The notes beneath the pieces are model-generated. The model was not told the origin of the DNA, made no database searches, and was given only the letters and a program-made list of their open reading frames with translations. From assembly GCA_964291405.2 (NCBI GenBank), contig OZ219926.1, positions 2,944,001 through 3,008,000 on the forward strand: 64,000 nucleotides of DNA. The letters are read 5' to 3'. The stretch is from Thermodesulfobacteriota bacterium (GTDB lineage Bacteria; Desulfobacterota; Binatia; Bin18). Below are positions 22,365-49,710 of the stretch, one piece after another. Each line of letters opens with the position of its first letter. The first letter of the stretch is position 1. Made by a program: the position numbers and the translations under genes.

Positions 22365-23210
22365 ATGAAAAATATAAGCACAACACTGACTCGACGCGAA
22401 TTTGTGGTGTCCACCTTAGCCACGGGCTTTGCCCTGGCCGTTCGTCCGGTTTCGGCCCAAACGATAACCACCGATACCAGTGGCCTGGAAGCCGCGGAGG
22501 TCCAGATACCGGTGGGCGATATCACTATTCCCGCCTACCAGGCGTACCCCCAAACCGGCGGGCCCTTCCCGGTCGTGCTGGTCGTTCAGGAAATCTTTGG
22601 TGTGCACGAGCATATCAAAGACATATGCCGCCGCTTCGCCAAGCAGGGCTATCTCGCGGTTGCGCCGGAACTCTACGCCAGGCAGGGCGATGTGTCGCAG
22701 ATGACGGATATCGGTGAGATTATTCGGACGGTGGTGGCCAAGGTTCCGGATGCGCAGGTCATGTCCGACCTGGATGCAACCGTAGCCTGGGTCAAGTCGT
22801 CCGGCACCGGCGACGTGGCCAGACTCGGTATCACCGGCTTTTGCTGGGGCGGGCGTATCGTGTGGATGTATGCCGCCCACAGTCCGCAGGTCAAAGCCGG
22901 AGCGGCCTGGTATGGGCGTCTGGTCGGGCAGGCATCCGACCTCACCCCAAGCCATCCGGTCGATATTGCCGCGCAGCTCCACGCTCCGGTGCTCGGTTTG
23001 TACGGCGCCGCCGATAGCGGTATTCCAAACGAAACGGTCGAACAGATGCGCGCCGCGTTACAGGCGGCGGAAAGCCCCTCCGAGATTATTCTGTATCCCG
23101 ATACGCCCCACGGTTTTCACGCCGACTATCGGGCCAGCTATCGTCAGGAAACGGCCCGGGACGGCTGGCAACGTCTCCTGGCCTGGTTCAAAAGCAACGG
23201 GGTAGCCTAA
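22365..23210 (+). CDS. Dienelactone hydrolase family protein with Tat signal
   Basis: TRREFV Tat motif; [22 protein letters not shown]. Confidence 0.92.
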
Positions 23211-23266
23211 GAGCATCCGAACACAGCGGAGGCGGCCGGGCAGAAGCGGAACGGGACGTGCCGGTT

Positions 23267-23795
23267 CTACCCGGCCTGTGGTTCTATCAGCTCAAGCACG
23301 GCCGGCCACAACTCGCGGTCGTGGACATTATAGCGGTACTCCGCGTCGAGCTTTTCCAAGAGTCGGACGACCTGGGGATATGCCTCACGGTCCCCGTTCC
23401 AGTCGCCGGCCTGTTCGATAATTGCTTCGAGAAAGCCGTGGAGAATCCCCAGAATCCCACCGTGTCCCTGCGTCAGCACCTTGAGGAAAAACGCATGATT
23501 GAGCACAAAGCCCGGCCCCTCAATGAGCCAGCCGATAAATCCGGGCTCCTCTTCTGAGGACTGCTGCCACCAGTGGAGCCAGGCGAACGCCAGCAGCACC
23601 TGTTCCGTATGAGGCAACATATAGAACGTCGCGGCCCAACTCGACGGCAACCCGTCCTCGTGCGACACCTGCGGCAGCCCCGGCTGCGCCTGAGGAGTCG
23701 TGCTCGGCCACCAATTGCCGCCAGTGCTGTCGGGCCTGCGCCAGTAAGGCGTCGGTCCGCGCATGATCGGTCAGACGGGTCAGGAGATAGTGCAT
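23267..23795 (-). pseudogene. Hypothetical protein split by a frameshift
   Basis: The protein-like N-terminus (MHYLLTRL...) and C-terminus (...SWAATFYMLPH...) are in overlapping different frames, switching near 23690. Confidence 0.5.
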
Positions 23796-23837
23796 GGCTC
23801 TTTCCCGACAGGGATGCCACGGTGGATGCCTTGCGTT

Positions 23838-25067
23838 CTAGGCCGAACCCAAAGCGTCCGAGACCCGCTGCAGGGCGGTCTCGACGTTCTCCCGGCTATT
23901 AAACGCGCTCAAGCGCACATAGCCCTCACCGCATTTCCCAAACCCGGCTCCTGGCGTGCAGACCACTCCGGCTTTTTGCAGCAAGCGGTCAAAGAACTCC
24001 CAGGAGTCCGTGTTGGTTTTAATCCACACATAGGGAGAATGCTCTCCGCCAACGCACGCATAACCCAAGCTCGTAATCGCCTCACGGATCAGGGCGGCAT
24101 TGCCGAGGTAGTAGTTGCTCAATTCTCGAATTTGTTTTTTGCCCTCAGGCGAGAAGGCGGCCTCGGCCGCACGCTGCACCGGATAGGAGACGCTGTTGAA
24201 TTTTGTTGACTGGCGCCGGTCCCAGAGCGCGTGGAGCGCATGAGCCGCGCCCTGGGAGTCGTACACCTGGCACTCTCTGGGCACGATGGTGTAGGCGCAG
24301 CGTGTTCCGGTAAAGCCGGCGGTCTTGGACAGACTCCGAAATTCGACCGCAACCTCTTTGGCTCCGTCGATCTCGTAAATGCTCTGCGGCAGGCTGTCGT
24401 CCCGGATAAACTCGACATAGGCCGCGTCATACAGAATGAGGGCTTTGTTCTCCCGCGCGTAGTCCACCCAAAGGCGCAACTGATCTGCGGTAATCATGCT
24501 GCCCGTGGGGTTATTGGGAAAACACAGATAAATGAGGTCAACCGCTTCCTGGGGGAGAGCCGGGATATACCGGTTGTCAGCCGTTGACTCCAGATAGACC
24601 AGCCCCTCATAGCGTCCGTCCCGCCAGGCCGTGGTTCGTCCGGCCATTACATTGGTATCGACATACACCGGGTAGACGGGGTCGGGTACGGCCACACGCG
24701 TGTCCAGGGAAAAAAGCTCCTGAAAATTGCCGGAGTCACACTTCGCGCCGTCACTCACAAAGACTTCGTCGGGCCTCAGCGTCACCCCGCGCGGCTGAAA
24801 ATCTCCGGCCACAATGGCTTCCTGCAAAAAATCATAGCCCAGTTCCGGGCCATAGCCCCGAAAGGTCGTGTCGTCCGCCATCTCATCTACGGCTCGATGA
24901 AAGGCGGTGACGCACGCATCGGGCAGCGCCCGCGTTACATCGCCAATTCCCAACCGAATAATGGCCTGACCCGGATTGTCGGCCTGATAGGCGTTGACCC
25001 GCTTGGCAATATCGGAAAACAGATATGAGGCCTGGAGCTTCAGGTAGTGTTCGTTCATCGTGATCAT
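23838..25067 (-). CDS. dapL: LL-diaminopimelate aminotransferase
   Basis: YLFSDIAKRV, LGIGDVT, VSDGAKCD, PNNPTG, SLSKTAGFTGTRC. Confidence 0.95.
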   Translation of the reverse strand: MITMNEHYLKLQASYLFSDIAKRVNAYQADNPGQAIIRLGIGDVTRALPDACVTAFHRAVDEMADDTTFRGYGPELGYDFLQEAIVAGDFQPRGVTLRPDEVFVSDGAKCDSGNFQELFSLDTRVAVPDPVYPVYVDTNVMAGRTTAWRDGRYEGLVYLESTADNRYIPALPQEAVDLIYLCFPNNPTGSMITADQLRLWVDYARENKALILYDAAYVEFIRDDSLPQSIYEIDGAKEVAVEFRSLSKTAGFTGTRCAYTIVPRECQVYDSQGAAHALHALWDRRQSTKFNSVSYPVQRAAEAAFSPEGKKQIRELSNYYLGNAALIREAITSLGYACVGGEHSPYVWIKTNTDSWEFFDRLLQKAGVVCTPGAGFGKCGEGYVRLSAFNSRENVETALQRVSDALGSA

Positions 25068-25089
25068 GGGGGCTGTCTCCTTCCGGTCC

Positions 25090-26013
25090 TTAGAGTGCGG
25101 GAATGATCTCTTTTGCGCACATCTCCAGATGTTCCATGTCATCAAAAGACGGGTTGAGTAAGAGGTGTTCGGCCCCGGCCCGGACGATCTCGCCGATCTT
25201 ATTGCGGCATTCGTCCAGACTGCCCCAAATGGCGACCTGCGAGGCCATATCCGCATTTTTATACCGGATGCCAAACCACTCCCGTAGCCGCCGTTCCGCG
25301 CGTGCCCGGTCGTTGTCCACCGCGATATAGACCCGCTTGGAGATCGTAAACGTGGCCGGGTCACGATCGGCTTCGTCCAGAAACTGACGGATCAAATTCG
25401 ACTGTCTGATGAAATCCTTGGTTGAGCTTGATCCGGCGCCCATCCAGCCGTCCCCGTGCCGGACGGCGCGGCGGAGCGGTCTTTCCTCGCGCGCGCCAAA
25501 CCAGATAGGCGGGTGAGGTTTTTGCACCGGCTTGGGCTCCATAGCCACATTCTCGAAGTTCCAGAACGTTCCGCTGACCGTGGCCTTGGGCTCTGTCCAC
25601 AGCGCCTTGATGGCTTGAATGCCCTCCACAAAACGCCGGGCACGGAGTTCGCTGGAATAGCCAAAGATGGTCTCCGGAACGTGTCCGCCAACACCCAGAC
25701 CGAAGATGAGCCGGCCCTGACTCATCTGATCCAGGCTCGACAAACTCTTGGCCAGTTGCACCGGGTTGCGCAGTACCGTCAGCAGAACCGAGGTCCCGAG
25801 CCGTGCTTTTGAGGTAATAGCGGCGATATAGTTGAGCAGGGCCACGGGTTCGAGAATGGCAAAGTCACTGACAATACTCTCCTGCACCCACAAGCTTTCG
25901 TAATCGAGGGCTTCGGCGCGCTGAACGAAATCCCGGACGAACGACATATCAACCGGGGTATCGAGAAACACCTGGGGAACGGCAATCCCACACGGAATAG
26001 AGCCTGTAGCCAT
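25090..26013 (-). CDS. LLM-class (flavin/F420) oxidoreductase
   Basis: RNPVQLAKSLSSLDQMSQGRLIFGLGVG, PKPVQKPHPPIWFG. Confidence 0.9.
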   Translation of the reverse strand: MATGSIPCGIAVPQVFLDTPVDMSFVRDFVQRAEALDYESLWVQESIVSDFAILEPVALLNYIAAITSKARLGTSVLLTVLRNPVQLAKSLSSLDQMSQGRLIFGLGVGGHVPETIFGYSSELRARRFVEGIQAIKALWTEPKATVSGTFWNFENVAMEPKPVQKPHPPIWFGAREERPLRRAVRHGDGWMGAGSSSTKDFIRQSNLIRQFLDEADRDPATFTISKRVYIAVDNDRARAERRLREWFGIRYKNADMASQVAIWGSLDECRNKIGEIVRAGAEHLLLNPSFDDMEHLEMCAKEIIPAL

Positions 26014-26032
26014 GTCTTGTCTCCTTACATGA

Positions 26033-26121
26033 GTGGTCGGTTGGGTCCATTGGGTCGGTTGAGTCTTTGGGAGTCTTTGGGACCCAAGAAACCCTATAGA
26101 CCCAAGAAACTCAATAGACTC
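26033..26121. repeat. Degenerate 9-nt (TTGRGTC-core) tandem/inverted repeat
   Basis: ttgggtcca ttgggtcgg ttgagtct... followed by the inverted arm gacccaag...actcaatagactc. Confidence 0.7.
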
Positions 26122-26123
26122 CC

Positions 26124-27236
26124 CTATTTCCCCGCGATTTCGGCACGTACGATCTGCGCGCCTTTGACCATGGCGCGCAGTTTATTATAGGCGCAGAAAC
26201 GGGGCAGGGCGCGCAGACCGCAATCCGTGGTCAGCGTCACCCGCTCCGGCTCGATGAACTGAAGCACCTTGCGGATGCGCTCCGCCACCTGCTCCGGCGT
26301 CTCGACCTGGAGATTGCGCACATCAATCACCCCAACCGCCACTTCCTTGTCTGCGGGCAGATCTTTCAGAATATGCGCGTCTTCCATCTCGCGGACGGCA
26401 AAGTCGAGCACGTACTGTTCGATCCCGGTGTCGTGCAGGTGGGGCAGGATGGAGCCATAGCCCGCCCCGGACGGGAACAGGCCCTGCGAGGCATTCCCCC
26501 AGGCGGCGCCAAAGCAGAAATGCCAGGCGAGCTTGGCCTCCACACTGTCTATGGTTTTGTTGATGACATCCACCACCCAGCCGAAGTCGTCCGGGTTGCC
26601 GCTGAACAGGGGCAGCCACGCCCCCAGGTCTTCCAGTTGGAGGAAGGAGGCCCCGCTTGCCACCATGTCTTTCATCTCGGCATTAAAAATAGGCGCGAGG
26701 GCGTAGGCCAGGTCTTTCTGGGTTTTGTAGTATTCGAGATGAACGTGATAGGTCAGGTTGATCGGTCCCGCGCCCACGCTACACCGCACCGGTTTTTTGG
26801 TATTGCGCTGGGCAATATGGTATAGATCGGCCAACCGCAGCGGCCCGCGTTTGACCTCGTCGGTCACCGCAGTCGCGCCCCAGTCGGTCAGCCAGGCCGC
26901 ATCATTGGATGAGGCATCTCCGCCTTCAACAATCGGGTGACTGTGTTTTGTTGGCACAAAGCCGTGAATGCGCTCATACCAGTACCAGACAAAAGACCCG
27001 ATGCAGCCGCCGTAGTCGTCGAACCACATCTGACCGTCCGTCAGAATATCCAGCCCGGCCTGCTCCTGGTCTTGCAGCACGGTGCGGGTCGCGTCCTCAA
27101 ACGCCTCGGCATGGTTGACGTCCTTGAACGCCTCCCAGATGTCCCGCCCGTGTAACTGATAGGTAAACCAGTGCGGGCGGGGATACGAACCGACCATGGT
27201 CGTGGGTAGGAGCGTATCGACTATGCTATTCAACAT
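26124..27236 (-). CDS. Cobalamin-independent methionine synthase C-terminal (core-MetE-like) protein
   Basis: TTMVGSYPRP, QEQAGLDILTDG, HFCFG, VGVIDV, TDCGL; single barrel of 370 aa. Confidence 0.88.
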   Translation of the reverse strand: MLNSIVDTLLPTTMVGSYPRPHWFTYQLHGRDIWEAFKDVNHAEAFEDATRTVLQDQEQAGLDILTDGQMWFDDYGGCIGSFVWYWYERIHGFVPTKHSHPIVEGGDASSNDAAWLTDWGATAVTDEVKRGPLRLADLYHIAQRNTKKPVRCSVGAGPINLTYHVHLEYYKTQKDLAYALAPIFNAEMKDMVASGASFLQLEDLGAWLPLFSGNPDDFGWVVDVINKTIDSVEAKLAWHFCFGAAWGNASQGLFPSGAGYGSILPHLHDTGIEQYVLDFAVREMEDAHILKDLPADKEVAVGVIDVRNLQVETPEQVAERIRKVLQFIEPERVTLTTDCGLRALPRFCAYNKLRAMVKGAQIVRAEIAGK

Positions 27237-27252
27237 GGCTGCCTTCTCCTTC

Positions 27253-29217
27253 TTATTCGAGTCTGTTGGGTCTCAAAGACCCAACAGACTCTATCCTCTC
27301 CCGCCCCTTTTCCGAGAGCGTCAGCGCCCGCTCCCACACGCCCCGACCGCGAATATAGCCGAGTTGATCGAGGCGGTTGACGATCACGCTCAGCGGCGAG
27401 GCCGCCATGCCGGTGGCCGTACTGAGATCGCGCAAGCTTTTGTCTCCTCCCGCAAGCTGCTCCAGAATCGAGCGGCTGTCCGCGTCCAGACCGGCAAAAC
27501 CGTTCAGAGCCGAAGGCGCGTCGGGCAGGTCTGCGAGTACGCGGTCTCCCTGCGGTGTGAGGCCAAACGTGAAATAATCGAGCCCGCTCCTGCCCCAGCG
27601 CTGGACGAGCCCGGCCCGTTCGAGTTCTTCGATGAGACGATGGCACTCGGCAGAATTGAGCAGGGTGAAATCGCTCAGCTCAACCATGGTCGTATAGCCG
27701 GTTCGAATCAGAACCAGCAGTCGTTCCTGCTCCGGGCTGAGGCGCAGCGTTTGAGGCTGATCCGCAGTAGCGTCGTCCGGCTGCGTCAGCAAAGACAGGC
27801 CGAGCACGGTCGGGAAGGTAATGATGGAGCCAACCACCACCGTATGCATGGTGCCCAGCGGAACGTCCATAAACTTCAGGACTTCGTAGACGAGCATCGA
27901 GACCGTCCCGGCCAACGTTCCCCAAAACGCCCCCGTAGCGGTAATAAAGGCCCAGCGGTGTCCGAGGAGGAGGACACAGGCCGCGGGGCCGAGCATGGCA
28001 CAGCTCACCGCTAGCAGATAATACGGTCCGCCCGGATAAAAGCTCAGCAGCCAGATGGCAAAACCGGTCAGCAGGGTGAGCAGGCGGCTCATCCGCAAGA
28101 CCGCCTCCGGGGAGGCCTCGGGCCGTATAAAGCGCTGGTAGATGTCGCGGGAAAGCGAGGAAGTAATGCCCATATGCGCATTGCTGGTGGTGGAGATGGT
28201 GGCGGCCAGGGCCGCCACCAGACCCAATAAGGCCATCGCCGCGGGGAAGTCTCGCATGAGCAGGCCGTAGGCGCCCATGGGGTTGGCCGGATTTACGGGG
28301 TCCAGAAAAGCGGCGCTGTGGACACTGCCGGCGTACAGACCGAGCACGCCCATGGAAGCGTGGATCACCAGGACGAGCAGGCCGCCAATAATGAACTGCC
28401 AGCGGGCAATCGGTTCGGTCCGTGCGGCCGCGGCGCGCAGCCAATAATAATTGCCGCCCCACTGAATAAAAAAGCCGATGACGAGTGAAACCGTCAGCAC
28501 GCTCGGATAACTCAGCCGAAACCAGGGAAAAGAGCCGAGCACACCGGCTGAGAGGGGTGTGGCGGTCACGAAGCTCGTCTCGATCAACTCCCAGCCGCCA
28601 TAGCTGACAAGACAGTAGACGGCCAGGGCCGGCAGGAAGAGGAAGCCCAACAGGACCTGCACGACGTCGGTCAGCGTCAGCGCCCACATCCCGCCCAGAA
28701 AAATAAACGTCAGGTGCCCGCCCAGGACAATGGTAATCATGAGCCACAGCGGCGCGCCCAGGAAACCCTGCATGATCAAGGCCATGGCCACCACATTCAT
28801 GGCCACCACGCCGGTGACACCCAGCAGGGTGGCAATGCTGACCACGATCCGGGTGCGCGTGTCAAAGCGCATCTCCAGCCACTCGGGGATGGTGTACGCG
28901 CCACAGCGCCGAATATACGGGCCGGCATAGACGCCATACGCAATATAGCCGATCACCAGGGGCAGGCTGCCGCCCAGGATCCAGCCGAGAAAACCGTACT
29001 GTATGGTCAGGCCGGGGACGATGCTGGTCATGCTGCCGGCGAACGCAATGCCGCAAATACTGGCAATCCCCGGAATGAGACTGACCTGCCGGCCGGCCAG
29101 CAAAAAGTCGCCGTCGGTGCGCACCCAGCGTTTGGCATACCAGCCCAGCGCCCAGAGCAGGATAATCAAGGCCAGAACGGAGGCGATAAAGATCGGCATG
29201 GCTCGGTTATTCCGCAA
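27253..29217 (-). CDS. Sodium:solute symporter family protein with two C-terminal winged-helix domains
   Basis: DFLLAGR, YTIPEWLEMRF, GGMWALTLTDVVQ, AATIST, RDIYQR; about 170-aa soluble tail with two wHTH-like repeats. Confidence 0.88.
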   Translation of the reverse strand: MRNNRAMPIFIASVLALIILLWALGWYAKRWVRTDGDFLLAGRQVSLIPGIASICGIAFAGSMTSIVPGLTIQYGFLGWILGGSLPLVIGYIAYGVYAGPYIRRCGAYTIPEWLEMRFDTRTRIVVSIATLLGVTGVVAMNVVAMALIMQGFLGAPLWLMITIVLGGHLTFIFLGGMWALTLTDVVQVLLGFLFLPALAVYCLVSYGGWELIETSFVTATPLSAGVLGSFPWFRLSYPSVLTVSLVIGFFIQWGGNYYWLRAAAARTEPIARWQFIIGGLLVLVIHASMGVLGLYAGSVHSAAFLDPVNPANPMGAYGLLMRDFPAAMALLGLVAALAATISTTSNAHMGITSSLSRDIYQRFIRPEASPEAVLRMSRLLTLLTGFAIWLLSFYPGGPYYLLAVSCAMLGPAACVLLLGHRWAFITATGAFWGTLAGTVSMLVYEVLKFMDVPLGTMHTVVVGSIITFPTVLGLSLLTQPDDATADQPQTLRLSPEQERLLVLIRTGYTTMVELSDFTLLNSAECHRLIEELERAGLVQRWGRSGLDYFTFGLTPQGDRVLADLPDAPSALNGFAGLDADSRSILEQLAGGDKSLRDLSTATGMAASPLSVIVNRLDQLGYIRGRGVWERALTLSEKGRERIESVGSLRPNRLE

Positions 29218-29707
29218 GACCGGGCGGGCGCTCGTAGCGTCCGAACACGAACAACCCCAGAATCTGGAGGGCGTGAATGAGGACCATCAGGCACATGATG
29301 AGGGTGACGAAATCGGACAGGGAGGCGTAGTGCATATAGAAGTAGGACTCAAAACCGGCCACACCCACCAGGCCGAGGGCGGTCGGCAGGTTTTTGGTGC
29401 GCCCCAGAAAGAGACTGAGCCCCAGGAGGATGAGACAATCGAAAAACGGACTGCCAATCCAGAAAAAGGCGGTGAAATTCTTCGTATGCAGGCGGCCGTC
29501 AAGCTCGACAAAACTCGGAATCGCCAAAAAGAACAGGGCGAAGCCGGCCACGATAATATAGGCGGCTATCATCCGCACCGTCCGCTCTATCATCCGGGCG
29601 GCTTTCTCGGGGTCGGTGAGTTCTTCGGTCGATATGCCGGCCAGGAGACGCAGGAGTTTCTCCCCAGGCGTACCGGCCGCGTTTCTCTGTTGTGGGTGCT
29701 CTGCCAT
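29207..29707 (-). CDS. Hypothetical 4-TM membrane protein
   Basis: Four hydrophobic segments; overlaps or abuts the symporter start. Confidence 0.7.
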   Translation of the reverse strand: MAEHPQQRNAAGTPGEKLLRLLAGISTEELTDPEKAARMIERTVRMIAAYIIVAGFALFFLAIPSFVELDGRLHTKNFTAFFWIGSPFFDCLILLGLSLFLGRTKNLPTALGLVGVAGFESYFYMHYASLSDFVTLIMCLMVLIHALQILGLFVFGRYERPPGLAE

Positions 29708-29809
29708 GGCAACAGATTATACGAATAAGATGCTGGCAAGCTTACGCGGTGTTGCGCCGCAAGGCAAATCCGATCCTCCCTTTCATCCTGGTCCGGAACC
29801 CATCACAAT

Positions 29810-29864
29810 AATGAGTAAACGTGCCCTCCAACAGACATGAGAATGCTGGGTACGTTTACTCATT
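29810..29864. repeat. GAGTAAAC-family palindromic element
   Basis: AATGAGTAAACGTGCCC...GGGTACGTTTACTCATT, 17-bp arms with one G-T pair. Confidence 0.8.
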
Positions 29865-29884
29865 CTACACAGGAGGCGCGCGAT

Positions 29885-30268
29885 ATGGTCCTACACTCGT
29901 ATCTGCTCTGGCTTGCTCTGAGTCTCATCCTCGGACTGGTGTTTTCGCCATACACGAGAGCCCAGAACGGTCCCTCCGCCATTCCGGAAGGAAGCGGCAG
30001 CATTATCCAGCCGGTCTCGTGGGAATTGACCAGCGAGAACGCCGCCGACCTGACCGAGCAGGTCCGCGCGGTCGTTCAGCAATTCGAGGGCGCCATCCTG
30101 GTCAAGGATGAGAAAGATATCCTCGTCCTTTCTCTGCCCTCGGAAAAACTCACCGACCTGCATCAAGAGCTGTCCACTCTTGGAACGCTGACGAGTCCGG
30201 AAGCCACCGATGAATACCAGGCACCGACCACCCTGCTTCGACTGAAGCTGGGCTCCGCCTCTGAGTAG
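29885..30268 (+). CDS. Hypothetical exported protein
   Basis: AGGAGG RBS and signal peptide. Confidence 0.65.
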   Translation: MVLHSYLLWLALSLILGLVFSPYTRAQNGPSAIPEGSGSIIQPVSWELTSENAADLTEQVRAVVQQFEGAILVKDEKDILVLSLPSEKLTDLHQELSTLGTLTSPEATDEYQAPTTLLRLKLGSASE

Positions 30269-30387
30269 ATTGGGTCTATGGGGTCTATGGGGTCCGACTC
30301 AACAGACCTTCCCCTTGTCGGGGGCGATGGACACGGCCGCACGGTCGTGGCTATACTCACGGCACTTTTCCGAACGAGGAGTGTACC

Positions 30388-31833
30388 ATGAGTCTGCGCA
30401 CACCGGAGCAATATAAAGAGAGTCTGAAAGACGGCCGGGAAGTCTATTATCGTGGCGAAAAGGTTGACGATGTCACCACCCACCCGGTTATCGGCAAGGC
30501 GGTCCAGCATGCCTGCATCGACTACCAGATGGCCGAAGACCCACGTTACCGCGACCTGGCAGTTGTCACCGACCCTCAGACCGGACAGGAGTATTCCCGG
30601 TATTATCACCTGCCCCAGAATGCCGAAGACCTGCTCCAGCGTAGCCGTCTGATTGCCGCCAGTACCCGCGAGGGAGCCACACTGGTTATTTTGATCAAAG
30701 AAATCGGCACGGACGCGCTCCTGGCGCTGCATGTTGTTGCCGAAGAAATGGCCAAGCACGGCGCGGGACAATATCGCGAGCGGGTCAAAAAGTATTATGA
30801 GCTGTGCCGGGATAATGATTACGCGGTGGCCGTGGCCCAGAGCGATGTCAAAGGGGACCGCAGCATGGGGCCTCAGGGCCAGGAACACCCGGATTATTAT
30901 GTGCGCATTGTTGACCGGCGTGACGACGGCATCGTCGTCCGCGGCGCCAAGATTCACACCTCGGTTTCCACCAATACGGACGAAGTTATTGTCCTGCCGA
31001 CCAGGGCGATGCGCGAGGGCGATGAAGACTACGCCGTGGCCTTCGCCCTGCCTGTGGCCACCAAAGGGCTGAAACTTCTGGCCAGTTCCTATGGCGGTTT
31101 CCAAAGAAACGATTTTGAGTACCCCATCAGTGCCAAACATAAAATGATGGAGACGCTGACCGTCTTTGAAGACGTGTTTGTTCCCTGGGAGCGAGTGTTC
31201 CTGGCCGGCGAGGTCGCCGCGGCGGGTTTGATGGCCCTGACCTTTGTGAAATTCCACCGCTTCACCGCGGTGTCGTACAAACTGCCCCTTCTGGAACTCA
31301 TGGCCGGTGCGTCCCAGGCCATTGCGGAATACAACGGTATTGAGCGGGCCGGCCATATTCGTGAGAAGCTGACCAAGCTGGCCAGCTATCATGCCACCGT
31401 CCAGGGGCTGATTCTGGCCGCTGCCCAGCAACACACCGTTGTCCCGCCGGGTATCGCCGTGCCCAACACGCTGATGACCAATGTGGCCAAATACCAGTTT
31501 GCCTCCAATTACCATCAGGCCGTCCAGATGGTACAGGACGTGAGCGGCGGGCTCTTGGTGACCGGGCCGAGCCTGGAGGACTGGCGCAGCGAAGCGACCG
31601 GCCCCTACGTCCAGAAATATTTAGGCGGCAAGAAAGGCACCTCGACCGAGCACCGACTGCGGCTGATGAACCTGATTTCGGACCTGACCGCGGGCGACTT
31701 TGGCGGTTATCAGGAAGTGTTGGCCGTGCACGCCGAGGGCTCCCTCGAAGCCGAAAAGCTCCAGACCTATCGCGAGTACGATTTTGCGGCCGCGGCGGAG
31801 TACGCCCGCGAGTTGGCGGGGATTGCCAAATAG
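30388..31833 (+). CDS. 4-hydroxyphenylacetate 3-hydroxylase / 4-hydroxybutyryl-CoA dehydratase family flavoprotein
   Basis: EQYKESLKDGREVY, SDVKGDRS, GIVVRGAKIH, FEDVFVPWERVFL. Confidence 0.9.
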   Translation: MSLRTPEQYKESLKDGREVYYRGEKVDDVTTHPVIGKAVQHACIDYQMAEDPRYRDLAVVTDPQTGQEYSRYYHLPQNAEDLLQRSRLIAASTREGATLVILIKEIGTDALLALHVVAEEMAKHGAGQYRERVKKYYELCRDNDYAVAVAQSDVKGDRSMGPQGQEHPDYYVRIVDRRDDGIVVRGAKIHTSVSTNTDEVIVLPTRAMREGDEDYAVAFALPVATKGLKLLASSYGGFQRNDFEYPISAKHKMMETLTVFEDVFVPWERVFLAGEVAAAGLMALTFVKFHRFTAVSYKLPLLELMAGASQAIAEYNGIERAGHIREKLTKLASYHATVQGLILAAAQQHTVVPPGIAVPNTLMTNVAKYQFASNYHQAVQMVQDVSGGLLVTGPSLEDWRSEATGPYVQKYLGGKKGTSTEHRLRLMNLISDLTAGDFGGYQEVLAVHAEGSLEAEKLQTYREYDFAAAAEYARELAGIAK

Positions 31834-38560: not shown

Positions 38561-39931
38561 ATGAAAAAGTCTCACCTTCTCCTGCGAGCGCTCCCATCCG
38601 TGGAAAAACTGCTGGCAGCGCCGGCGCTTCAGCCCATCCTGGCCCGCTATAACCGAACGTATATCACCGACCTGATTCGTCAGGTCTTGGAGACGCTGCG
38701 TCAGGACATTCTATCCGGCGCACATACCACACCGCTTGCCGAACACGACCTGATCGAGCGCATTACAACCCGACTCCACAGCGAGGACCAGTCCCCGCTG
38801 CGTTCGGTCATCAATGCCACCGGCACGGTGCTGCACACCAACCTGGGGCGCGCCCTGCTGGCCCAGGCGGCCATAGACGAAGTGGTCCGGGCGGCGTCCA
38901 CACCCGTGACGCTCGAATATGACGTGTCTCGGGCCGGTCGCGGCGACCGGGACGATCTGGTCGAGGCCGACCTGACCGCCCTGACCGGCGCGGAAGCGGC
39001 CACAGTGGCGAATAATAACGCGGCCGCGGTGTTATTGGCGCTGAACACGCTGGCGGAAGGGCGGGAAGGGATCGTTTCGCGCGGAGAGCTGATCGAGATC
39101 GGCGGCTCTTTCCGCATCCCCGAGGTCATGCGCAAGAGCGGCGTGGTGCTGCGCGAGGTCGGCACGACCAACCGGACCCATCCGCACGATTATGCCAGCG
39201 CCGTCTCGGATCGGACGGGGGTTCTGCTCAAGGTGCATACCAGCAATTACCGGGTCGTGGGTTTCACCGCCGAGGTTGGCCTGGAAGAACTGGTGGCCCT
39301 GGGTAAGGAGCGTGGTGTCCCGGTCATGGAGGATTTGGGAGCCGGGGCGCTGATCGACCTGGCGCAGTACGGACTGCCACAGGAACCGGTCGTGGCCGAG
39401 CGGGTCGCCAAAGGCGCGGACGTGGTCACCTTTAGCGGCGATAAACTCCTCGGCGGGCCGCAGGCCGGGCTCATTGTGGGCCGCAAAGCCTGGGTGGACC
39501 AGATCAAAAAGAACCCGCTCAAACGGGCGCTACGCCTCGACAAGCTGACGCTGGCGGCCCTGAGCGCGACCCTGCGCCTGTACCGTCGTTCACCCCAATT
39601 GCCCCGCGACCTGCCCACCCTGCGTTGGCTGACCCGGCCGGTGCATGAAATGGAAACTCTGGCGGCCCAGGCCGTTCCGCTTATCCAGCAGGCGCTCGGC
39701 AGCGCATTCTCGCTGAGCGTCGAGCAGGCAACCGCCCAGATCGGCAGTGGGGCGCTGCCGGAGGAGGAACTCCCCAGCACGATCATTGCCGTTCGGCACG
39801 GCGAACTGTCCGCGGAAAAAATCGCCCAGCGTTTCCGGCAGGCCGATACACCCATCCTGGGCCGGATTCACAACGACACGTTCTTGCTCGACCTGCGCGG
39901 TATTTTTGATCCGCAGGACCTTGTTCCGTGA
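38561..39931 (+). CDS. selA: L-seryl-tRNA(Sec) selenium transferase
   Basis: VINATGTVLHTNLGRA, SRGELIEIGGSFRIP, FSGDKLLGGPQAG. Confidence 0.97.
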   Translation: MKKSHLLLRALPSVEKLLAAPALQPILARYNRTYITDLIRQVLETLRQDILSGAHTTPLAEHDLIERITTRLHSEDQSPLRSVINATGTVLHTNLGRALLAQAAIDEVVRAASTPVTLEYDVSRAGRGDRDDLVEADLTALTGAEAATVANNNAAAVLLALNTLAEGREGIVSRGELIEIGGSFRIPEVMRKSGVVLREVGTTNRTHPHDYASAVSDRTGVLLKVHTSNYRVVGFTAEVGLEELVALGKERGVPVMEDLGAGALIDLAQYGLPQEPVVAERVAKGADVVTFSGDKLLGGPQAGLIVGRKAWVDQIKKNPLKRALRLDKLTLAALSATLRLYRRSPQLPRDLPTLRWLTRPVHEMETLAAQAVPLIQQALGSAFSLSVEQATAQIGSGALPEEELPSTIIAVRHGELSAEKIAQRFRQADTPILGRIHNDTFLLDLRGIFDPQDLVP

Positions 39932-39937
39932 GCGGGC

Positions 39938-40123
39938 TCAGTTGTCATCGTCGTACAGTTCCTTCCGGCTCAATGTCCCGTACACAGTCCCGTTTCGCAC
40001 GCCGAGTTGAATACGATTGTGGCCATTGGCCTTCGTGTCGGTCAGTTTCCGTGCTATCTCGGCGACCACCTCCAAACCGCGGGCGATCGGTTCGGGGATA
40101 TCTTTGACATCAATGGTTTCCAT
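39938..40123 (-). CDS. Small hypothetical protein (antitoxin-like)
   Basis: 61 aa ending GTLSRKELYDD, resembling antitoxin tails; no partner gene. Confidence 0.5.
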   Translation of the reverse strand: METIDVKDIPEPIARGLEVVAEIARKLTDTKANGHNRIQLGVRNGTVYGTLSRKELYDDDN

Positions 40124-40150
40124 ATTCTAACCAAGACGGTCACGAGGATT

Positions 40151-40245
40151 TGGCGGAGAAGGGATGGAGTCGAACCATCCGCGCAACTTACGCCACGCAA
40201 CTCGGTTTTGAAGACCGGTACGGCCACCGGGCCATATCCTTCCCC
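40151..40245 (-). tRNA. selC: tRNA-Sec (UCA)
   Basis: 8-bp acceptor GGGGAAGG/CCTTCTCC, 6-bp D stem, CTTCAAA anticodon loop, long variable arm, 5-bp T stem with TTCGACT loop, GCCA end; 95 nt; next to selA. Confidence 0.95.
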
Positions 40246-40335
40246 CCGCCAGCCTCAGCGCTTACCACGGCAGAAGATGTGAGTCCAGCAATGGCAAGCG
40301 CTAGCAGATGCTGACTATGCAGGGGCCCTGCTCTT

Positions 40336-40537
40336 CTATCCTCTCTCGGGACGTGTGATGCATATCGAGGCGTGAGCCTCCCAGGGACCGGTCCGGCGGT
40401 TCCCACCTTGGGCCGCTCGCCCGCCCGCTGCCTGGGAGCGCGGCCCTCCTGGCCCCCGGTCGCAGACCGGCACGGCGCAGGGGAGCCGGAGGCCGCCGAG
40501 TAATGTAAGTTGCACCATACGTCTGAGGAGGAGAGCT
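40336..40537 (-). ncRNA. ssrS: Probable 6S RNA
   Basis: About 200 nt with complementary ends (CTCAGACGTATGGTGCA / TGCATCACACGTCCCGAG); motifs TTACTCGGCGGCCTC, CAAGGTGG, ACCGGTC and CACGTCCCGAGAGAG recall cyanobacterial-type 6S (from memory, not searched). Confidence 0.6.
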
Positions 40538-40543
40538 TTTTTA

Positions 40544-40583
40544 TCCCCTCCTCGGAGGGGTGGCCCGCAGGGCCGGGGTGGGT
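40544..40583. repeat. REP-like element CCCCTCCTCGGAGGGGTGGCCCGCAGGGCCGGGGTGGG
   Basis: Double hairpin; related copy at 35756-35782. Confidence 0.65.
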
Positions 40584-40642
40584 CGGGTCCGGTCGACTCA
40601 GCCTCCGTTCTCAAGAGGAGGAAGACAGGGCAGAGTCCGAAA

Positions 40643-40671
40643 TTGACAGACTCACCGGAAGATTTTATAGC
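40643..40671 (+). promoter_or_regulatory. Sigma70-like promoter
   Basis: TTGACA-17-TATAGC. Confidence 0.55.
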
Positions 40672-40696
40672 GGAGGACTGAAGGGAGAGGGGCGGT

Positions 40697-40984
40697 ATGG
40701 CCGGCCAACCAAATATCCATAAGAAGATGGATAAAATTCTGCAAAAGCTGACGACGCTGGAAGCGAACGACAAGGGACTGGCCAAGCAGACCAACTACCT
40801 GGCGCAACTGGTCGTGCTGGCAAAGCAAGACTCTGCCCGCCAACATTAGGAGTCCCAGACGATTTTGCAGGAGTCCCAGACGATGTTACGGGACATGGGG
40901 CAAATACTCCTGGAAGTCAGAAAAATCTCGGCTCGAACCGAGGAGCGGGTCGCGGAGATACTTGCGGAAACGCGCTGGCACTGA
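40697..40984 (+). pseudogene. Coiled-coil small protein, nonsense-interrupted copy
   Basis: In-frame TAG at 40847 where the paralog has CAG; the frame continues to TGA at 40982. Confidence 0.8.
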
Positions 40985-41056
40985 GCCATGATGGATACTC
41001 GTTTGTGAGAAGTGACGGTGAAGGAAATATGAGAGAATTAAGTGGAGAAACAAAAG

Positions 41057-41290
41057 TTACGAGTCTTCTTGTTCACCACCAGAAACGGCATTAGGTCCGC
41101 TAGAGGTTTCAACTTCAATCTTACCTCTTTCGCCCCAATGGAAGATAAATCGGAAATTCTTGTTTTTGAGAACCACGGCGTAGAGAAGTATTCCTACCAC
41201 CGTCCCAATAAAAAAACTGATGAGATCAAATGTGAAACCCGTGGGGAGCAGGCTCTCAAACATCCTATTAGGCAGCCTGCTCTTCCACAA
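41057..41290 (-). CDS. Small single-TM hypothetical protein
   Basis: Hydrophobic FDLISFFIGTVVGILLYAVVL; overlaps the RHH gene. Confidence 0.5.
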   Translation of the reverse strand: MWKSRLPNRMFESLLPTGFTFDLISFFIGTVVGILLYAVVLKNKNFRFIFHWGERGKIEVETSSGPNAVSGGEQEDS

Positions 41291-41504
41291 GCGATTCTAG
41301 TTGAGGAAACACCACTTCTACTTGCGAGGAATCATCTCTCTCAAGTATGATTTTGCTCTTCTTTTCGTATTTTTCGTTTGCAAGCCACCGGAGAACACCA
41401 AGAGCGTGGTTGACGACTTCACCCCTAGACTTTGCGTTGAGAATTTCTTTCAACGAGTCTAGCTCTTTCACGGCTGCATCAGAAAATTCAAATTGGATTC
41501 GCAT
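41268..41504 (-). CDS. Ribbon-helix-helix (CopG-like) protein
   Basis: MRIQFEFS beta-strand followed by the helices ELDSLKE...SRGEVVNHAL. Confidence 0.7.
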   Translation of the reverse strand: MRIQFEFSDAAVKELDSLKEILNAKSRGEVVNHALGVLRWLANEKYEKKSKIILERDDSSQVEVVFPQLESLVEEQAA

Positions 41505-41727
41505 AATTCATATTTCAATCAGAGTCGGCGATAGAGCCAACCCTTGTTTCTTGTTCAATTTTCTCCAAAGGCAGAGTTTCCTTCGGGGCGCGCGGTTTCT
41601 CCTCAATCTCTAGCCGCGTTCCATCAACTTGCCCCCCATCTTCCACATGGTTTTCTTGTTCCACTACATAACCTCCCCGTTATTCTGCCATACATTGTGT
41701 GTCCCTCCTTTCGCTGAGTACTTCTGA

Positions 41728-41791
41728 ATAGTACTAATAAGAGAGTTTATTGTCAATTAAGCACAATATTTATTCTCATAAAACTCTCTTA
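41728..41791 (-). promoter_or_regulatory. Sigma70 promoter with flanking inverted repeat
   Basis: Minus strand TTGACA (41756-51), 17-nt spacer, TACTAT (41733-28); inverted repeat TAAGAGAGTTT (41738-48) / AAACTCTCTTA (41781-91). Confidence 0.7.
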
Positions 41792-41871
41792 ATACTCCCC
41801 CTCAGGCAGACATAACAGTTCAGCGGGTTGGAACAGCGGCCTATCACAGGAAGACGGGGCGGTGTCCGAAA

Positions 41872-41900
41872 TTGACAGACTCACCGGAAGATTTTATAGC
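41872..41900 (+). promoter_or_regulatory. Sigma70-like promoter (copy 2), upstream of the small gene and the dnd operon
   Basis: TTGACA-17-TATAGC. Confidence 0.55.
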
Positions 41901-41925
41901 GGAGGACTGAAGGGAGAGGGGCGGT

Positions 41926-42246
41926 ATGGCCGGCCAACCAAATATCCATAAGAAGATGGATAAAATTCTGCAAAAGCTGACGACGCTGGAAGCGAACGAC
42001 AAGGGACTGGCCAAGCAGACCAACTACCTGGCGCAACTGGTCGTGCTAGCCAAGCAGGACTCTGCCCGCCAACATCAGGAGTCCCAGACGCTGTTGCACG
42101 ACATGGGGCAAATGCTCTTGGAAGTCAGAAAATCCTCGGTCCAGACTGAGTCGATGGTACACGATGTGGGGCAAATGCTCTTGGAAGTCAGAAAAATCTC
42201 ATCTCGAACCGAGGGGAGATACTCGCGGAAACGCGCAGGGGTGTAG
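41926..42246 (+). CDS. Small coiled-coil protein (direct repeat A copy 2)
   Basis: Internal 21-aa repeat HD[MV]GQMLLEVRK; the tail is shifted by a 10-nt deletion relative to copy 1. Confidence 0.6.
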   Translation: MAGQPNIHKKMDKILQKLTTLEANDKGLAKQTNYLAQLVVLAKQDSARQHQESQTLLHDMGQMLLEVRKSSVQTESMVHDVGQMLLEVRKISSRTEGRYSRKRAGV

Positions 42247-42328
42247 CTTAATAAATACCGCGTTGGTAGAAAAATCTTGTTAAGAAAATCCGTCAGTCCG
42301 AAAAGGTGAGGGGAACTATTTTAGGACA

Positions 42329-43621
42329 ATGGACATGAACACATACGAAGATATTAAGAGCGCGTTACGACAGCTCTACCTAGAGGACGACCGGCCTTGG
42401 CTTGTGGGGTTTAGTGGAGGGAAGGACAGCACCATGCTCGCCTCGCTCATCTTCGAGACTGTCCTTTCGTTTCCAATAGAAAGACGAACAAAACCCATCT
42501 CCGTCCTTTGCACAGATACCCGAGTCGAAATCCCTGCCATTGTTGAAATGGTCGAAGGAACCCTGGAGAAGATGCGCAAGTGTTCGGAAAAGAACAACAT
42601 GCGTATAGATGTCAATCTCCTTCGCCCTCCCGCTGACCAGTCATTTTGGGTCAACATTATTGGGCGTGGGTATCCTCCGCCGAATCGTGTCTTTCGCTGG
42701 TGCACACAGCGCATGAAGATTGATCCGGTTACTACCTTTGTTCAGCAACGTCTCGGTCATTGGGGCGAGGCAATTCTCCACCTTGGTGCACGACGTGCCG
42801 AGAGTAGCAGCCGGGCGCAGACAATGGCGGGCCGTGAATCACGAAACGGACTTCATCGTCACCCGAACTTGCCTCGGGTGTGGGTGTCCAATCCAATCGA
42901 GTTTCTGAGTACGGACGAGGTATGGACCTATTTATTGCAAAATCCGAATCCATGGGGGACAAACAATCGCTCTTTGTTTGCGCTCTATGCACGAAGCGGC
43001 GACTGTCCGATCCAAATTGACACGAGTACCCCGAGCTGCGGCAAGAGCCGGTTCGGCTGTTGGACCTGTACGGTTGTCGAGCGTGATAAGGCAAGCGAAG
43101 GCTTACTTGCGAGTGGTGACGAACGTATGGAAGACCTGATCGAATTCAGGGAGACGCTTATACGCTATCGTGACCCGGAGAACGGAAAGCGAGACATGAA
43201 GCGGATGAACGGAAGCGATGGCCCTGGTCCGCTTACTATGACTGCTCGTCGTGAATTGTTGACCCAACTCCTCAAATTACAGGAGCAGACCGGCCTGAAA
43301 GTTATCAGCGAGGATGAATTGTTTCTTATTCAAAAGCATTGGAAAGCCGCCCGTCAACCCGATGATGGCGGTGGTGTAGGACGCATTGTCACTCGTCAGA
43401 GAGGAATCATCATGAAGGACTGGAAGGAAGTAAACCAGTTGCGGGACCTGGAGGAGGAGGTCGTAGCTGAGAAAGGCATCCGTGCAGATACCTTACGGCG
43501 TCTGCTTGCAAAAGTTGAAGAATACAGCGAGCGCCATCGTGCCTATGGCTTACCGGATGATATGCTGAACATCCTGAAAGACGATATGGAGCACGAAAAG
43601 GAAGCGCTCGAAGATGCCTGA
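42329..43621 (+). CDS. dndC: DNA phosphorothioation sulfurtransferase DndC
   Basis: PWLVGFSGGKDST, FWVNIIGRGYP, FRWCTQRMKI, SCGKSRFGCWTCTVV. Confidence 0.95.
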   Translation: MDMNTYEDIKSALRQLYLEDDRPWLVGFSGGKDSTMLASLIFETVLSFPIERRTKPISVLCTDTRVEIPAIVEMVEGTLEKMRKCSEKNNMRIDVNLLRPPADQSFWVNIIGRGYPPPNRVFRWCTQRMKIDPVTTFVQQRLGHWGEAILHLGARRAESSSRAQTMAGRESRNGLHRHPNLPRVWVSNPIEFLSTDEVWTYLLQNPNPWGTNNRSLFALYARSGDCPIQIDTSTPSCGKSRFGCWTCTVVERDKASEGLLASGDERMEDLIEFRETLIRYRDPENGKRDMKRMNGSDGPGPLTMTARRELLTQLLKLQEQTGLKVISEDELFLIQKHWKAARQPDDGGGVGRIVTRQRGIIMKDWKEVNQLRDLEEEVVAEKGIRADTLRRLLAKVEEYSERHRAYGLPDDMLNILKDDMEHEKEALEDA

Positions 43622-47230: not shown

Positions 47231-47232
47231 CT

Positions 47233-48303
47233 ATGGCTAAGAAACCTCAATCAGAGAAATTTTTAGATTCCATACCCGCCCTTGAGGTCTTACAGGGTGA
47301 GACGACTTTCTACTTATTTGCAATTTCAGCAAAGAAACTTCTTCGAATAGCTTACACTTCCGAGAGGACCCAGTATAACCGAGAAGGAATTCAGCGTGGC
47401 CTACGTCCCGACCGCCTTAGAGATATTGGTAAATTTCTCACTGCAAACGGCTCAAATCCACCGCTCCTGCCCAACGCCATAATCATCAGCCTTAGTTCAA
47501 AGAGTTATTACAAAGATGGTCGCCTTCATATTCGCGAATGTCCTTCCGGGGAAGCGTTCGTCATTGATGGCCAACATCGTCTCTGGGCGTTCGATCCACA
47601 ATATTCAGGAGAAGCCGACCTTGATGTCGTCGTAACCGCCTTCATAGATCTTGACGACTCCGGTAAGGCATCCATCTTTCGGTCTATCAACGGGAATCAG
47701 AGAAAAATCAATCCTTCGCTAGTCTATGATCTCATTCCGATGTTGCGCAACCAGGAAACGGTAGCCTTCGAAGACAGGAGATGCCGAGACCTCGTTGCGC
47801 TTCTTAATGAAGAGACTCCTGACTCTCCATGGAAGAATCGTATTAGTATGGTGGGTGGTGGGAACCGCATAATAAGTCAGTCGTCGTTTATTTCCGCGCT
47901 CAAAAAACTCTTTAAGAAAGATCACCTTTTCGCCAGTAAAAACTCAGACTTCTTTGAGCAACGTATTCAGCATGACCTCTTACTTGAATATTTCAAAGCA
48001 ATTCAAAGTTCATATTCTGTTCAATGGGACAATAAGGCATTCTTTCTGTGCAAATATGTTGGAGTATCTGCGTTACTGAATCTCCTTGAACGTATTATTG
48101 CGGATCTCAAAGAAAATGGCATACCTGTTAGCGATAAGAACGGACTCTGCATAGACAAAATGACCTTCGCACCATACGTAAAAAAACTGAAACAATTCTC
48201 TTTCAGTACCGCTGAGGAGAAGGAAAAAGGTATCACTTACGTAGGCGAGGGTGGAATTCGTGAACTAACTAAGCGGGTGATTTCTCTCGTATTTCCCTCC
48301 TGA
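47233..48303 (+). CDS. DGQHR-domain protein (DndB-like)
   Basis: GIQR, LLPNAIII, VIDGQHRL, IFRSINGNQRKI. Confidence 0.88.
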   Translation: MAKKPQSEKFLDSIPALEVLQGETTFYLFAISAKKLLRIAYTSERTQYNREGIQRGLRPDRLRDIGKFLTANGSNPPLLPNAIIISLSSKSYYKDGRLHIRECPSGEAFVIDGQHRLWAFDPQYSGEADLDVVVTAFIDLDDSGKASIFRSINGNQRKINPSLVYDLIPMLRNQETVAFEDRRCRDLVALLNEETPDSPWKNRISMVGGGNRIISQSSFISALKKLFKKDHLFASKNSDFFEQRIQHDLLLEYFKAIQSSYSVQWDNKAFFLCKYVGVSALLNLLERIIADLKENGIPVSDKNGLCIDKMTFAPYVKKLKQFSFSTAEEKEKGITYVGEGGIRELTKRVISLVFPS

Positions 48304-48304
48304 T

Positions 48305-49291: not shown

Positions 49292-49412
49292 GTCCTGCCA
49301 CTAGTGAACCTGATGAAGCTTCCTCGGGTCACAGGTCTCAAACCTTTCTATCTCTAATCGGACATTATTGATCCCGCTTGGGTAATATTCTTGGTGACAG
49401 AGGGAAGTTAGG

Positions 49413-49694: not shown

Positions 49695-49710
49695 AAATCG
49701 GTAAATCCGG

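What the first reader, a model, noticed from the sequence alone, without database searches (positions are those of the whole stretch)
27253..29707. Sodium:solute symporter fused to tandem winged-helix domains (candidate transporter-regulator)
Seen: after the last TM helix, a ~170-aa tail holds two MarR/ArsR-like repeats (LSPEQERLL...TMVELSD...CHRLIEELERAGLVQR...FGLTPQG and LDADSRSIL...SLRDLS...LSVIVNRLDQLGYIR...LTLSEKG). A 4-TM protein is coupled upstream. Known: SLC5 domains are fused to kinases and cyclases (CbrA/CrbS), but I do not recall a direct SLC5-wHTH fusion being characterised. Inference: a one-component membrane transceptor that could bind DNA depending on transport state and may regulate the co-oriented MetE-like, LLM and dapL genes.
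Basis: partly seen in the sequence, partly recalled or inferred. Interest (0 to 1): 0.75.

Follow-up and report, generated by a model that had tools for sequence, protein, structure and literature searches.

The report
Sodium symporter with twin winged-helix tail
This gene belongs to a widespread, apparently undescribed family of nutrient importers that carry two regulator-like domains on their inner end; these domains more likely control the transporter itself than switch genes.

Summary
The fusion is real. Window 27253-29199 (-) encodes a 648-aa, 13-helix SSS/SLC5 symporter followed in frame by two MarR-like winged helices. The tail sits in an ORF with symporter sequence in 80 of 80 genome loci fetched (Binatia, Bacillota, spirochaetes) and in relatives down to about 22% identity. 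It is under purifying selection, and AlphaFold places it confidently against the transporter (pTM 0.92). The transport sites look intact.

The 'DNA-binding transceptor' reading is weakened, not excluded. The first helix-turn-helix is never net positive (87 of 87), and the MarR wing-tip arginine is replaced in both wings. Outside Binatia, 25 of 26 loci carry their own regulator (TrmB, sigma-54 activator or MalT-like), and operator or promoter motifs follow the TrmB and sigma-54 regulators while the tail stays constant. The MetE-like/LLM/dapL neighbours and the upstream membrane protein belong to one Binatia paralogue only.

Best reading: a Na+ importer, in Bacillota probably of a cyclic 1,3-dicarbonyl compound, with a docked cytoplasmic cap that acts on the transporter (about 0.5). 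DNA binding: about 0.2. I found no description of the family in print.

The parts
27253..29199 (-). SSS/SLC5 symporter fused to tandem winged helices, 648 aa
   Evidence: full-length homologues
27787..29199 (-). Symporter domain, residues 1-471, 13 predicted membrane helices, LeuT fold
   Evidence: Pfam SSF; DSSP of the model; Z 38.3 to CHT1 (rmsd 3.3, 437 aligned) and Z 36.6 to SiaT (rmsd 3.2, 441 aligned)
28189..28203 (-). Na2-site motif A333-x-x-S336-T337
   Evidence: S336 invariant; A333 and T337 in at least 90% of 88 diverse sequences. Lies on the vSGLT core-TM8 serine pair, with a one-residue shift in the pairwise alignment
27532..27741 (-). Winged helix 1 (residues 487-556): acidic HTH with near-invariant D510; wing G-x-x-F-Y-T-F in place of the MarR D-x-R
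27274..27489 (-). Winged helix 2 (residues 571-642): variable HTH, short wing G-(L/I)-W-R-R
29207..29707 (-). 166-aa membrane protein of no known family, linked to this Binatia paralogue only
   Evidence: 19 homologues, 58-99% identical, among 208 candidates; 26 of 81 loci, window included
26124..27236 (-). MetE-like (Meth_synt_2) protein, 16 nt downstream; neighbour specific to this paralogue
   Evidence: (below the methionine synthase cut-offs)
25090..26013 (-). LLM-class oxidoreductase (TIGR03619 above cut-off)
23838..25067 (-). dapL, LL-diaminopimelate aminotransferase (housekeeping)
   Evidence: TIGR03542 565 bits against cut-off 364.7

Best explanation
A working Na+-coupled SSS importer whose subfamily acquired a duplicated MarR-type winged helix early on. 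The tandem pair no longer reads an operator. It folds back onto the cytoplasmic face of the transporter as a cap, where it most likely tunes inner-gate opening, turnover or assembly state. SHOWN here (by computation): the fusion and its conservation; purifying selection on the tail; intact Na2 residues; the wHTH fold; loss of the MarR wing-tip Arg and an acidic first HTH; dedicated regulators, with matching cis-motifs for the TrmB and sigma-54 types, in non-Binatia operons. PREDICTED: a fixed tail-to-transporter pose. INFERRED: that the tail is cytoplasmic (13 helices, SSS N-out topology, established knowledge); that the cap regulates transport; and that in Bacillota the substrate is a cyclic 1,3-dicarbonyl or ring compound opened by the cyclase-family hydrolase and then cleaved by BKACE or FAH. 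In Binatia the substrate is probably an aromatic or heterocyclic compound (LLM, amidohydrolase and HpaB neighbours).
For: The full-length AlphaFold model has pLDDT 92.9 and pTM 0.92. By my reasoning, a freely tethered quarter of the chain would hold pTM near 0.75. Rigid superpositions of that model on other LeuT-fold transporters run into residues 541-546 and 611-624, the two wing regions, an indirect sign that the wings lie next to the transporter body. Net charge of HTH1 (504-530) is 0 or below in 87 of 87 sequences, weighted mean -2.9. The neighbouring TrmB HTHs, used as a control, score 0 to +3 in 9 of 9. The wing-tip Arg is 'absolutely conserved' in MarR (PMC11602129, passages). By the alignments it maps to position 541 (K/R 12%), and by my count from the L-T motif to position 622 (K/R 0%, W/F/L 82%). 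25 of 26 non-Binatia loci carry a TrmB (11), sigma-54 activator (9) or MalT-like (5) gene. A 16-bp palindrome occurs in 8 of 11 TrmB loci and 0 of 70 others; a strict sigma-54 promoter occurs in 6 of 9 activator loci and 0 of 72 others. 16 apparently complete tail-less proteins fall inside the same clade. dN/dS is 0.07-0.18 for wH1 (12 of 13 pairs; one saturated) and 0.12-0.55 for wH2 (13 pairs) (all pairs share the window sequence).
Against: No contact list or PAE was available, so the docking surface is not seen. wH2 keeps basic wing residues (623 K/R 83%, 624 R 80%) and a positive net charge in about 81% of weight. wH1 keeps R534 (96%), the equivalent of the MarR backbone-contact Arg. Several of the acidic positions are also common in true MarRs (alignments; partly recalled), and other wHTH families bind DNA without a wing D-x-R (recalled). 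No metabolic regulator was found within 5 kb of the Binatia loci. The TrmB palindrome was derived from the same loci, and its count (6) did not exceed the shuffled maximum (4-6). No transporter residue robustly separates tailed from tail-less members. Some tail-less proteins may be truncated records; this was not checked.
Confidence: 0.5

Rival explanations
1. One-component transceptor: the tandem wHTH acts as a single-chain MarR-like pair, undocks in a transport-dependent way and binds a promoter from the membrane, perhaps at distant genes or only in Binatia.
For: MarR-like fold at Z 12-13.6; 49 of 52 tails match MarR_2 at E up to 0.01; basic wing in wH2 and conserved R534; no local regulator in Binatia; purifying selection; SSS domains are known signalling inputs (PMC7918813, passages).
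Against: Acidic HTH1 and lost wing-tip Arg. No position in the N-terminal part of the wH2 recognition helix (599-609) exceeds 50% conservation. Cis-motifs change with the dedicated regulator, and no dyad is shared across regulator types beyond A/T runs. The downstream genes are not conserved.
Confidence: 0.2
2. Trigger transporter: the tail is a docking site that sequesters or activates a separate protein (the operon regulator, a catabolic enzyme or a global factor) or an RNA, depending on transport state.
For: A regulator gene lies in 25 of 26 non-Binatia loci, directly after the transporter in the 5 MalT-like cases. HTH1 has a conserved exposed acidic face. Tandem wHTH hits include ScpB and SelB, though with poor overall superposition, rmsd 8-12. 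MalK-MalT and PtsG-Mlc are precedents (recalled).
Against: The three regulators are unrelated families, and no neighbour is shared by Bacillota and Binatia loci, yet the tail motifs are the same.
Confidence: 0.18
3. Purely structural appendage for folding, stability or oligomerisation, with no regulatory role.
For: Rigid predicted pose; mostly hydrophobic-core and glycine conservation in wH2; apparent repeated loss in the clade.
Against: Near-invariant polar surface residues D510, R534, E507 and D515. Close tail-less relatives apparently fold without it.
Confidence: 0.11
4. Accidental fusion (lost stop codon or assembly error).
For: None found.
Against: 119 of the 120 listed homologues are 631-679 aa and cover at least 94% of the query; 80 of 80 loci are fused, including isolate genomes. 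The search for short stand-alone tails gave 8 hits among 2272 candidates. The six whose sequences I read look like pieces of fused genes; the other two are 124-162 aa and 66-92% identical to the window's tail.
Confidence: 0.01

Closest known systems
SSS/SLC5 symporters (PutP, vSGLT, SiaT, CHT1)
   Same: LeuT fold, 13 helices, Na2 motif, SSF match above cut-off.
   Different: Only 15-21% identical to solved members and below the cut-offs of all five NCBIfam SSS models hit. It has a 160-residue tandem wHTH tail; no solved chain matched both parts.
SSS-STAC sensor kinases CbrA and CrbS/MxtR
   Same: 13-helix SSS domain fused to cytoplasmic C-terminal domains (PMC7918813, passages and section 14).
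   Different: No STAC, PAS, kinase or receiver domain detected. The Na2 residues are kept here, whereas they are not conserved in CbrA according to the review.
MarR-family regulators (BpsR, PecS/UrtR)
   Same: Each repeat superposes on the MarR wHTH core; the beta-1 Arg is kept in wH1.
   Different: No dimerisation helices, tandem in one chain, wing-tip D-x-R replaced by Gly plus aromatic residues, acidic HTH1.
Transmembrane transcription regulators (ToxR, CadC, BcrR)
   Same: HTH-type domain tied to the membrane.
   Different: The membrane part is a full transporter. In the census of PMC10269533, SSF occurs in one entry only, with another architecture (HTH_1, LysR_substrate, SSF), although three genomes of species that carry this family were in it.
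FeoC of the Feo iron transporter
   Same: A winged helix tied to a transporter and predicted to be a repressor, with DNA binding not demonstrated (PMC7762939, passages); an NFeoB/FeoC complex structure is cited there by title only.
   Different: FeoC is a separate single-domain protein on an unrelated transporter. This is an analogy, not homology.
Phloroglucinol cluster of Clostridium scatologenes (DPGC, TAL)
   Same: Cyclase-family ring hydrolase plus BKACE plus thiolase plus transporter and regulator (PMC10470551, passages and section 7). The Bacillota loci have cyclase in 20, BKACE in 11 and thiolase in 2 of 26.
   Different: No conserved reductase or 3-hydroxyacyl-CoA dehydrogenase among the recurrent neighbours scanned. 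FAH replaces BKACE in 7 loci. Orthology to DPGC was not tested.

Membership tests
SSS/SLC5 (TC 2.A.21) | SSF profile match above curated cut-off | tested here: met
   Pfam 93 bits against 22.8; the NCBIfam superfamily model TIGR00813 gives 106.9, below its 184 cut-off
SSS/SLC5 (TC 2.A.21) | LeuT-fold core with 13-14 membrane helices | tested here: met
   13 helices in the model; Z 38.3, rmsd 3.3, 437 aligned to CHT1
SSS/SLC5 (TC 2.A.21) | Na2 site: two hydroxyl residues in core TM8 | tested here: met
   S336 invariant, T337 at least 90%; the pairwise register to vSGLT is off by one but still gives two hydroxyls
SSS/SLC5 (TC 2.A.21) | Measured cation-coupled transport | not testable with these tools
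   needs an uptake assay
MarR transcription regulators | Winged helix-turn-helix fold | tested here: met
MarR transcription regulators | Wing-tip Arg (PecS R121) for the minor groove | tested here: not met
   K/R in 12% at 541 and 0% at 622 (register); wH2 has basic residues one and two places later, so its register is less certain
MarR transcription regulators | N- and C-terminal dimerisation helices | tested here: not met
   each repeat has only the core helices, the wing and one following helix; feature defined in PMC11602129
Transmembrane one-component regulators | Membrane segments plus a DNA-binding-type domain in one chain | tested here: met
Transmembrane one-component regulators | A cognate operator that travels with the protein | tested here: inconclusive
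   motifs follow the TrmB or sigma-54 genes; none is shared across groups in the upstream stretches searched; distant targets were not searched
Transmembrane one-component regulators | Demonstrated DNA binding | not testable with these tools
   needs EMSA, DAP-seq or ChIP
SSS-STAC sensor kinases (CbrA/CrbS) | STAC and kinase or other signalling enzyme domains after the SSS domain | tested here: not met
   the tail is fully taken up by two winged helices

The most novel reading that the evidence does not exclude
A Na+-coupled transporter that is itself a transcription factor: substrate flux releases a single-chain winged-helix pair from the cytoplasmic face so that it binds DNA, most plausibly through the basic wing of the second repeat and at distant genes or in Binatia, where no local regulator was found. 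It would be the smallest possible transport-to-transcription circuit, with no kinase or second protein.
Probability: 0.2. Interest if true: 0.88.

Novelty: new variant of a known kind. Interest (0 to 1): 0.58.

Why it matters
It adds a new cytoplasmic partner domain to SLC5 transporters, beside the STAC-linked signalling enzymes. The family is spread over several phyla, and in a published census of membrane regulators SSF appears only once, in another architecture. If the cap regulates the transporter, it is a clean case of a DNA-binding fold reused to control a LeuT-fold carrier, a family with few known built-in regulatory domains in prokaryotes (own knowledge). If it binds DNA, it is a true one-protein transceptor. 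Either outcome can be tested in cultured soil and saline Bacillota (Virgibacillus, Brevibacillus, Geomicrobium). Their operons also point to an uncharacterised ring-opening pathway with interchangeable BKACE/FAH enzymes, and so to the substrate.

Tried and rejected
Literature searches that found no description of the family: 0 papers; 9; 13; 0; 1; 1. I saw listings and abstract starts only, except for the five papers read in passages. Subscription journals are mostly absent, the STAC paper (Korycinski 2015) was not read, and bioRxiv supplements could not be seen.

The ESM Atlas holds automatically named SSS clusters with this architecture ('SSF/TrmB', 80 members; SSF with HTH_27 on 14% of 72 members), so the architecture is visible in databases but not characterised. 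The Atlas search with the tail alone gave no usable hit.

My covariation script (227 sequences, effective number about 75) gave only noise and no tail-transporter contacts. The tailed versus tail-less comparison (32 vs 16) gave no convincing interface residue; R111 (29 of 32 vs 6 of 16) is an uncorrected, phylogenetically confounded lead. Foldseek hits to tandem wHTH proteins (AlkX, SelB, ScpB) have rmsd 8-15 and show no shared arrangement.

The promoter scan of 23000-30500 gave 3 sites against 2.3 expected, and Rfam found no riboswitch. The inverted repeat at about 29810-29865 was rejected as an operator because it is missing in close relatives. The upstream membrane protein was rejected as a family-wide subunit.

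The docking surface and the taxonomy of the most distant members (P0194, P0196, P0201, guessed to be archaeal from sequence style only) therefore stay open. Viral and metagenome contig collections were not searched, and 33 of 113 genome hits were not seen.

Full report
Observation. The minus strand carries a 166-aa membrane protein (29707-29207), then after 7 nt a 648-aa ORF (29199-27253), then after 16 nt a MetE-like gene, an LLM oxidoreductase and dapL. The long ORF matches SSF (E 2.4e-26) and two HTH stretches above Pfam cut-offs. The two repeats are homologous to each other. AlphaFold on an 88-sequence alignment gives 13 membrane helices and two winged helices, with pLDDT 92.9 and pTM 0.92. 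The membrane part superposes on CHT1 and SiaT (Z 38.3 and 36.6). The tail folded alone (pLDDT 87.5, pTM 0.79) matches MarR cores (best Z 13.6, rmsd 1.6, 76 residues).

The fusion is a family. Of the 120 best homologues listed (162 passed E 1e-10 among 8000 candidates scored), 119 are 631-679 aa and cover at least 94% of the query, from 98% down to 34% identity. The exhaustive profile library added full-length members down to about 22% identity. A genome scan used two motifs from the membrane domain, confirmed 113 relatives and returned the best 80: 54 Binatia-type and 26 others (23 Bacillota, 3 spirochaetes). All 80 have the tail in an ORF that also holds symporter sequence; L052 is frameshifted further upstream, and L046 and L071 are cut by contig ends. 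Ranking by full-length score favours tailed genes, and the 33 weaker hits were not seen. Many Binatia genomes hold two paralogues. In a midpoint-rooted FastTree of 124 symporter domains, all 45 tips labelled as tailed fall in one clade (support 0.99). That clade also has 21 tips labelled tail-less: five are fragments (three of them do reach the tail) and 16 look complete. This suggests one early gain and several losses, but no formal clade test was run and truncation was not checked. dN/dS against the window is 0.06-0.14 for the membrane domain and 0.07-0.18 for wH1 (12 of 13 pairs each), and 0.12-0.55 for wH2 (13 pairs).

It is probably a working transporter. The Na2 motif A333-x-x-S336-T337 and D178 are conserved and lie on the vSGLT sodium-site helix, with a one-residue ambiguity in the pairwise alignment. 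CbrA, by contrast, lacks the Na2 residues according to the review PMC7918813 (passages). With 13 helices and the N-out topology of the family (established knowledge), the tail is cytoplasmic.

Does the tail bind DNA? In 87 diverse sequences (P0247 dropped because its tail is different), HTH1 never has a positive net charge; D510 is D/E in all, and E507, D515 and E524 in 86-88%. The neighbouring TrmB HTHs score 0 to +3 (9 of the 11 could be scored). In MarR proteins a wing-tip Arg held by an Asp enters the minor groove and is called absolutely conserved (PMC11602129, passages). Two solved MarRs align this D-K-R on G539-x-541, where K/R occurs in 12%; the matching place in wH2 is W/F/L. The dimerisation helices are absent. 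Against this, R534 is kept (96%), wH2 has basic residues at 623-624 and a mostly positive charge, and some acidic positions are ordinary for MarR. So wH1 looks repurposed and wH2 is ambiguous.

Context. In the 26 non-Binatia loci the gene sits with a cyclase-family hydrolase (20), BKACE (11) or FAH (7, never both), a lactonase-like protein (4) and thiolase (2). One of three unrelated regulators is present: TrmB (11), sigma-54 activator (9) or MalT-like (5), 25 of 26 in all; the exception lies at a contig end. A 16-bp palindrome lies just before the operon in 8 of 11 TrmB loci and 0 of 70 others, and a strict sigma-54 promoter in 6 of 9 activator loci and 0 of 72 others. A relaxed sigma-54 pattern hit 7 activator loci, 2 TrmB loci and the unassigned locus. 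The palindrome was first seen in these same loci, at a count no higher than shuffles reach, so its force lies in its restriction to TrmB loci. Regulator and cis-element are swapped together while the tail stays, which is hard to square with the tail being the operon's regulator. No MalT-type motif was searched for. In Binatia the next gene is MetE-like in 20, hisS in 19, LLM in 12 and other in 4 of 55 loci; the upstream membrane protein is in 26. Among 74 further ORFs around these loci (one per cluster, plus two longer ones), the only DNA-binding hits were an HTH_3 protein and a CopG antitoxin, which leaves room for a regulatory role there.

Substrate. The cyclase's closest solved relative is isatin hydrolase (E 9e-11). 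Cyclase plus BKACE plus thiolase is the enzyme logic of anaerobic phloroglucinol breakdown, where a cyclase opens a cyclic 1,3-dione and BKACE cleaves triacetate (PMC10470551, passages and section 7). The reductase and dehydrogenase of that pathway are not among the recurrent neighbours here, so I infer a related ring compound, not phloroglucinol itself. This is a lead only.

Mechanism. I favour a docked cap acting on the transporter (0.5). The high whole-chain pTM implies a fixed pose, and superpositions on other carriers reach into both wing regions. The wings are glycine- and aromatic-tipped, and the acidic HTH1 could pair with the basic inner loops (inference). No contact map was available, and my covariation test was uninformative. 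Rivals are a DNA-binding transceptor (0.2), a partner-docking trigger transporter (0.18), a purely structural domain (0.11) and an artefact (0.01).

Novelty. Searches found no description. The parts of the SSS review I read list kinase, GAF and phosphatase fusions only. The census of transmembrane regulators lists SSF once, in a LysR architecture (PMC10269533, passages and two searches of nine supplementary files). Databases show the architecture under automatic names. FeoC is the nearest analogy for a transporter-linked winged helix without shown DNA binding (PMC7762939, passages). Verdict: a new variant of SLC5 fusion, real and widespread; interest 0.58.

Noticed in passing
L055-L080, upstream of the operons: A candidate TrmB operator (16-bp palindrome, TACTAC-N4-GTAGTA) in 8 of 11 TrmB loci and sigma-54 promoters in 6 of 9 activator loci: the same catabolic operon is run by interchangeable regulators.
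   Followed up: yes
L055-L080: Uncharacterised cyclase + (BKACE or FAH, mutually exclusive) + lactonase/thiolase pathway in Bacillota, resembling the phloroglucinol ring-opening logic without its reductase.
   Followed up: partly
window 29810-29865: An inverted repeat between the divergent genes, present in the window and about seven relatives but cleanly absent from several closely related loci.
   Followed up: partly
P0191; P0242 and P0247; P0150, P0151, P0173, P0180, P0195: Other SSS proteins with unusual tails: by eye, P0191 has a single winged-helix-like segment plus an extra membrane helix; P0242 and P0247 share a different tail of about 140 aa; five have 60-100 aa extensions. Pfam finds only SSF in all.
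   Followed up: no
L052:8001-9916: The symporter gene is split by a frameshift in the membrane domain (ORFs of 307 and 413 aa): an assembly error or a pseudogene.
   Followed up: no
L017, L019, L021, L042, L046, L054: Records titled 'uncultured Enterobacteriaceae' carry Binatia-like sequence and, in most, Binatia-like gene order; the titles are probably wrong.
   Followed up: no
L065, L070, L071, L074, L075: In spirochaetes and Halanaerobiaceae the gene is followed at once by a MalT-like regulator and, in four of the five, preceded by divergent RND or ABC export genes with a LolA-like protein.
   Followed up: no
window 38561-39931 (+) and 40155-40246 (-): A selA-like ORF (recognised by eye, not scanned) lies next to tRNA-Sec (Rfam).
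   Followed up: no
window 40000-50000: G+C drops to 0.48-0.52 against about 0.60 elsewhere, starting next to tRNA-Sec; possibly an integrated element.
   Followed up: no
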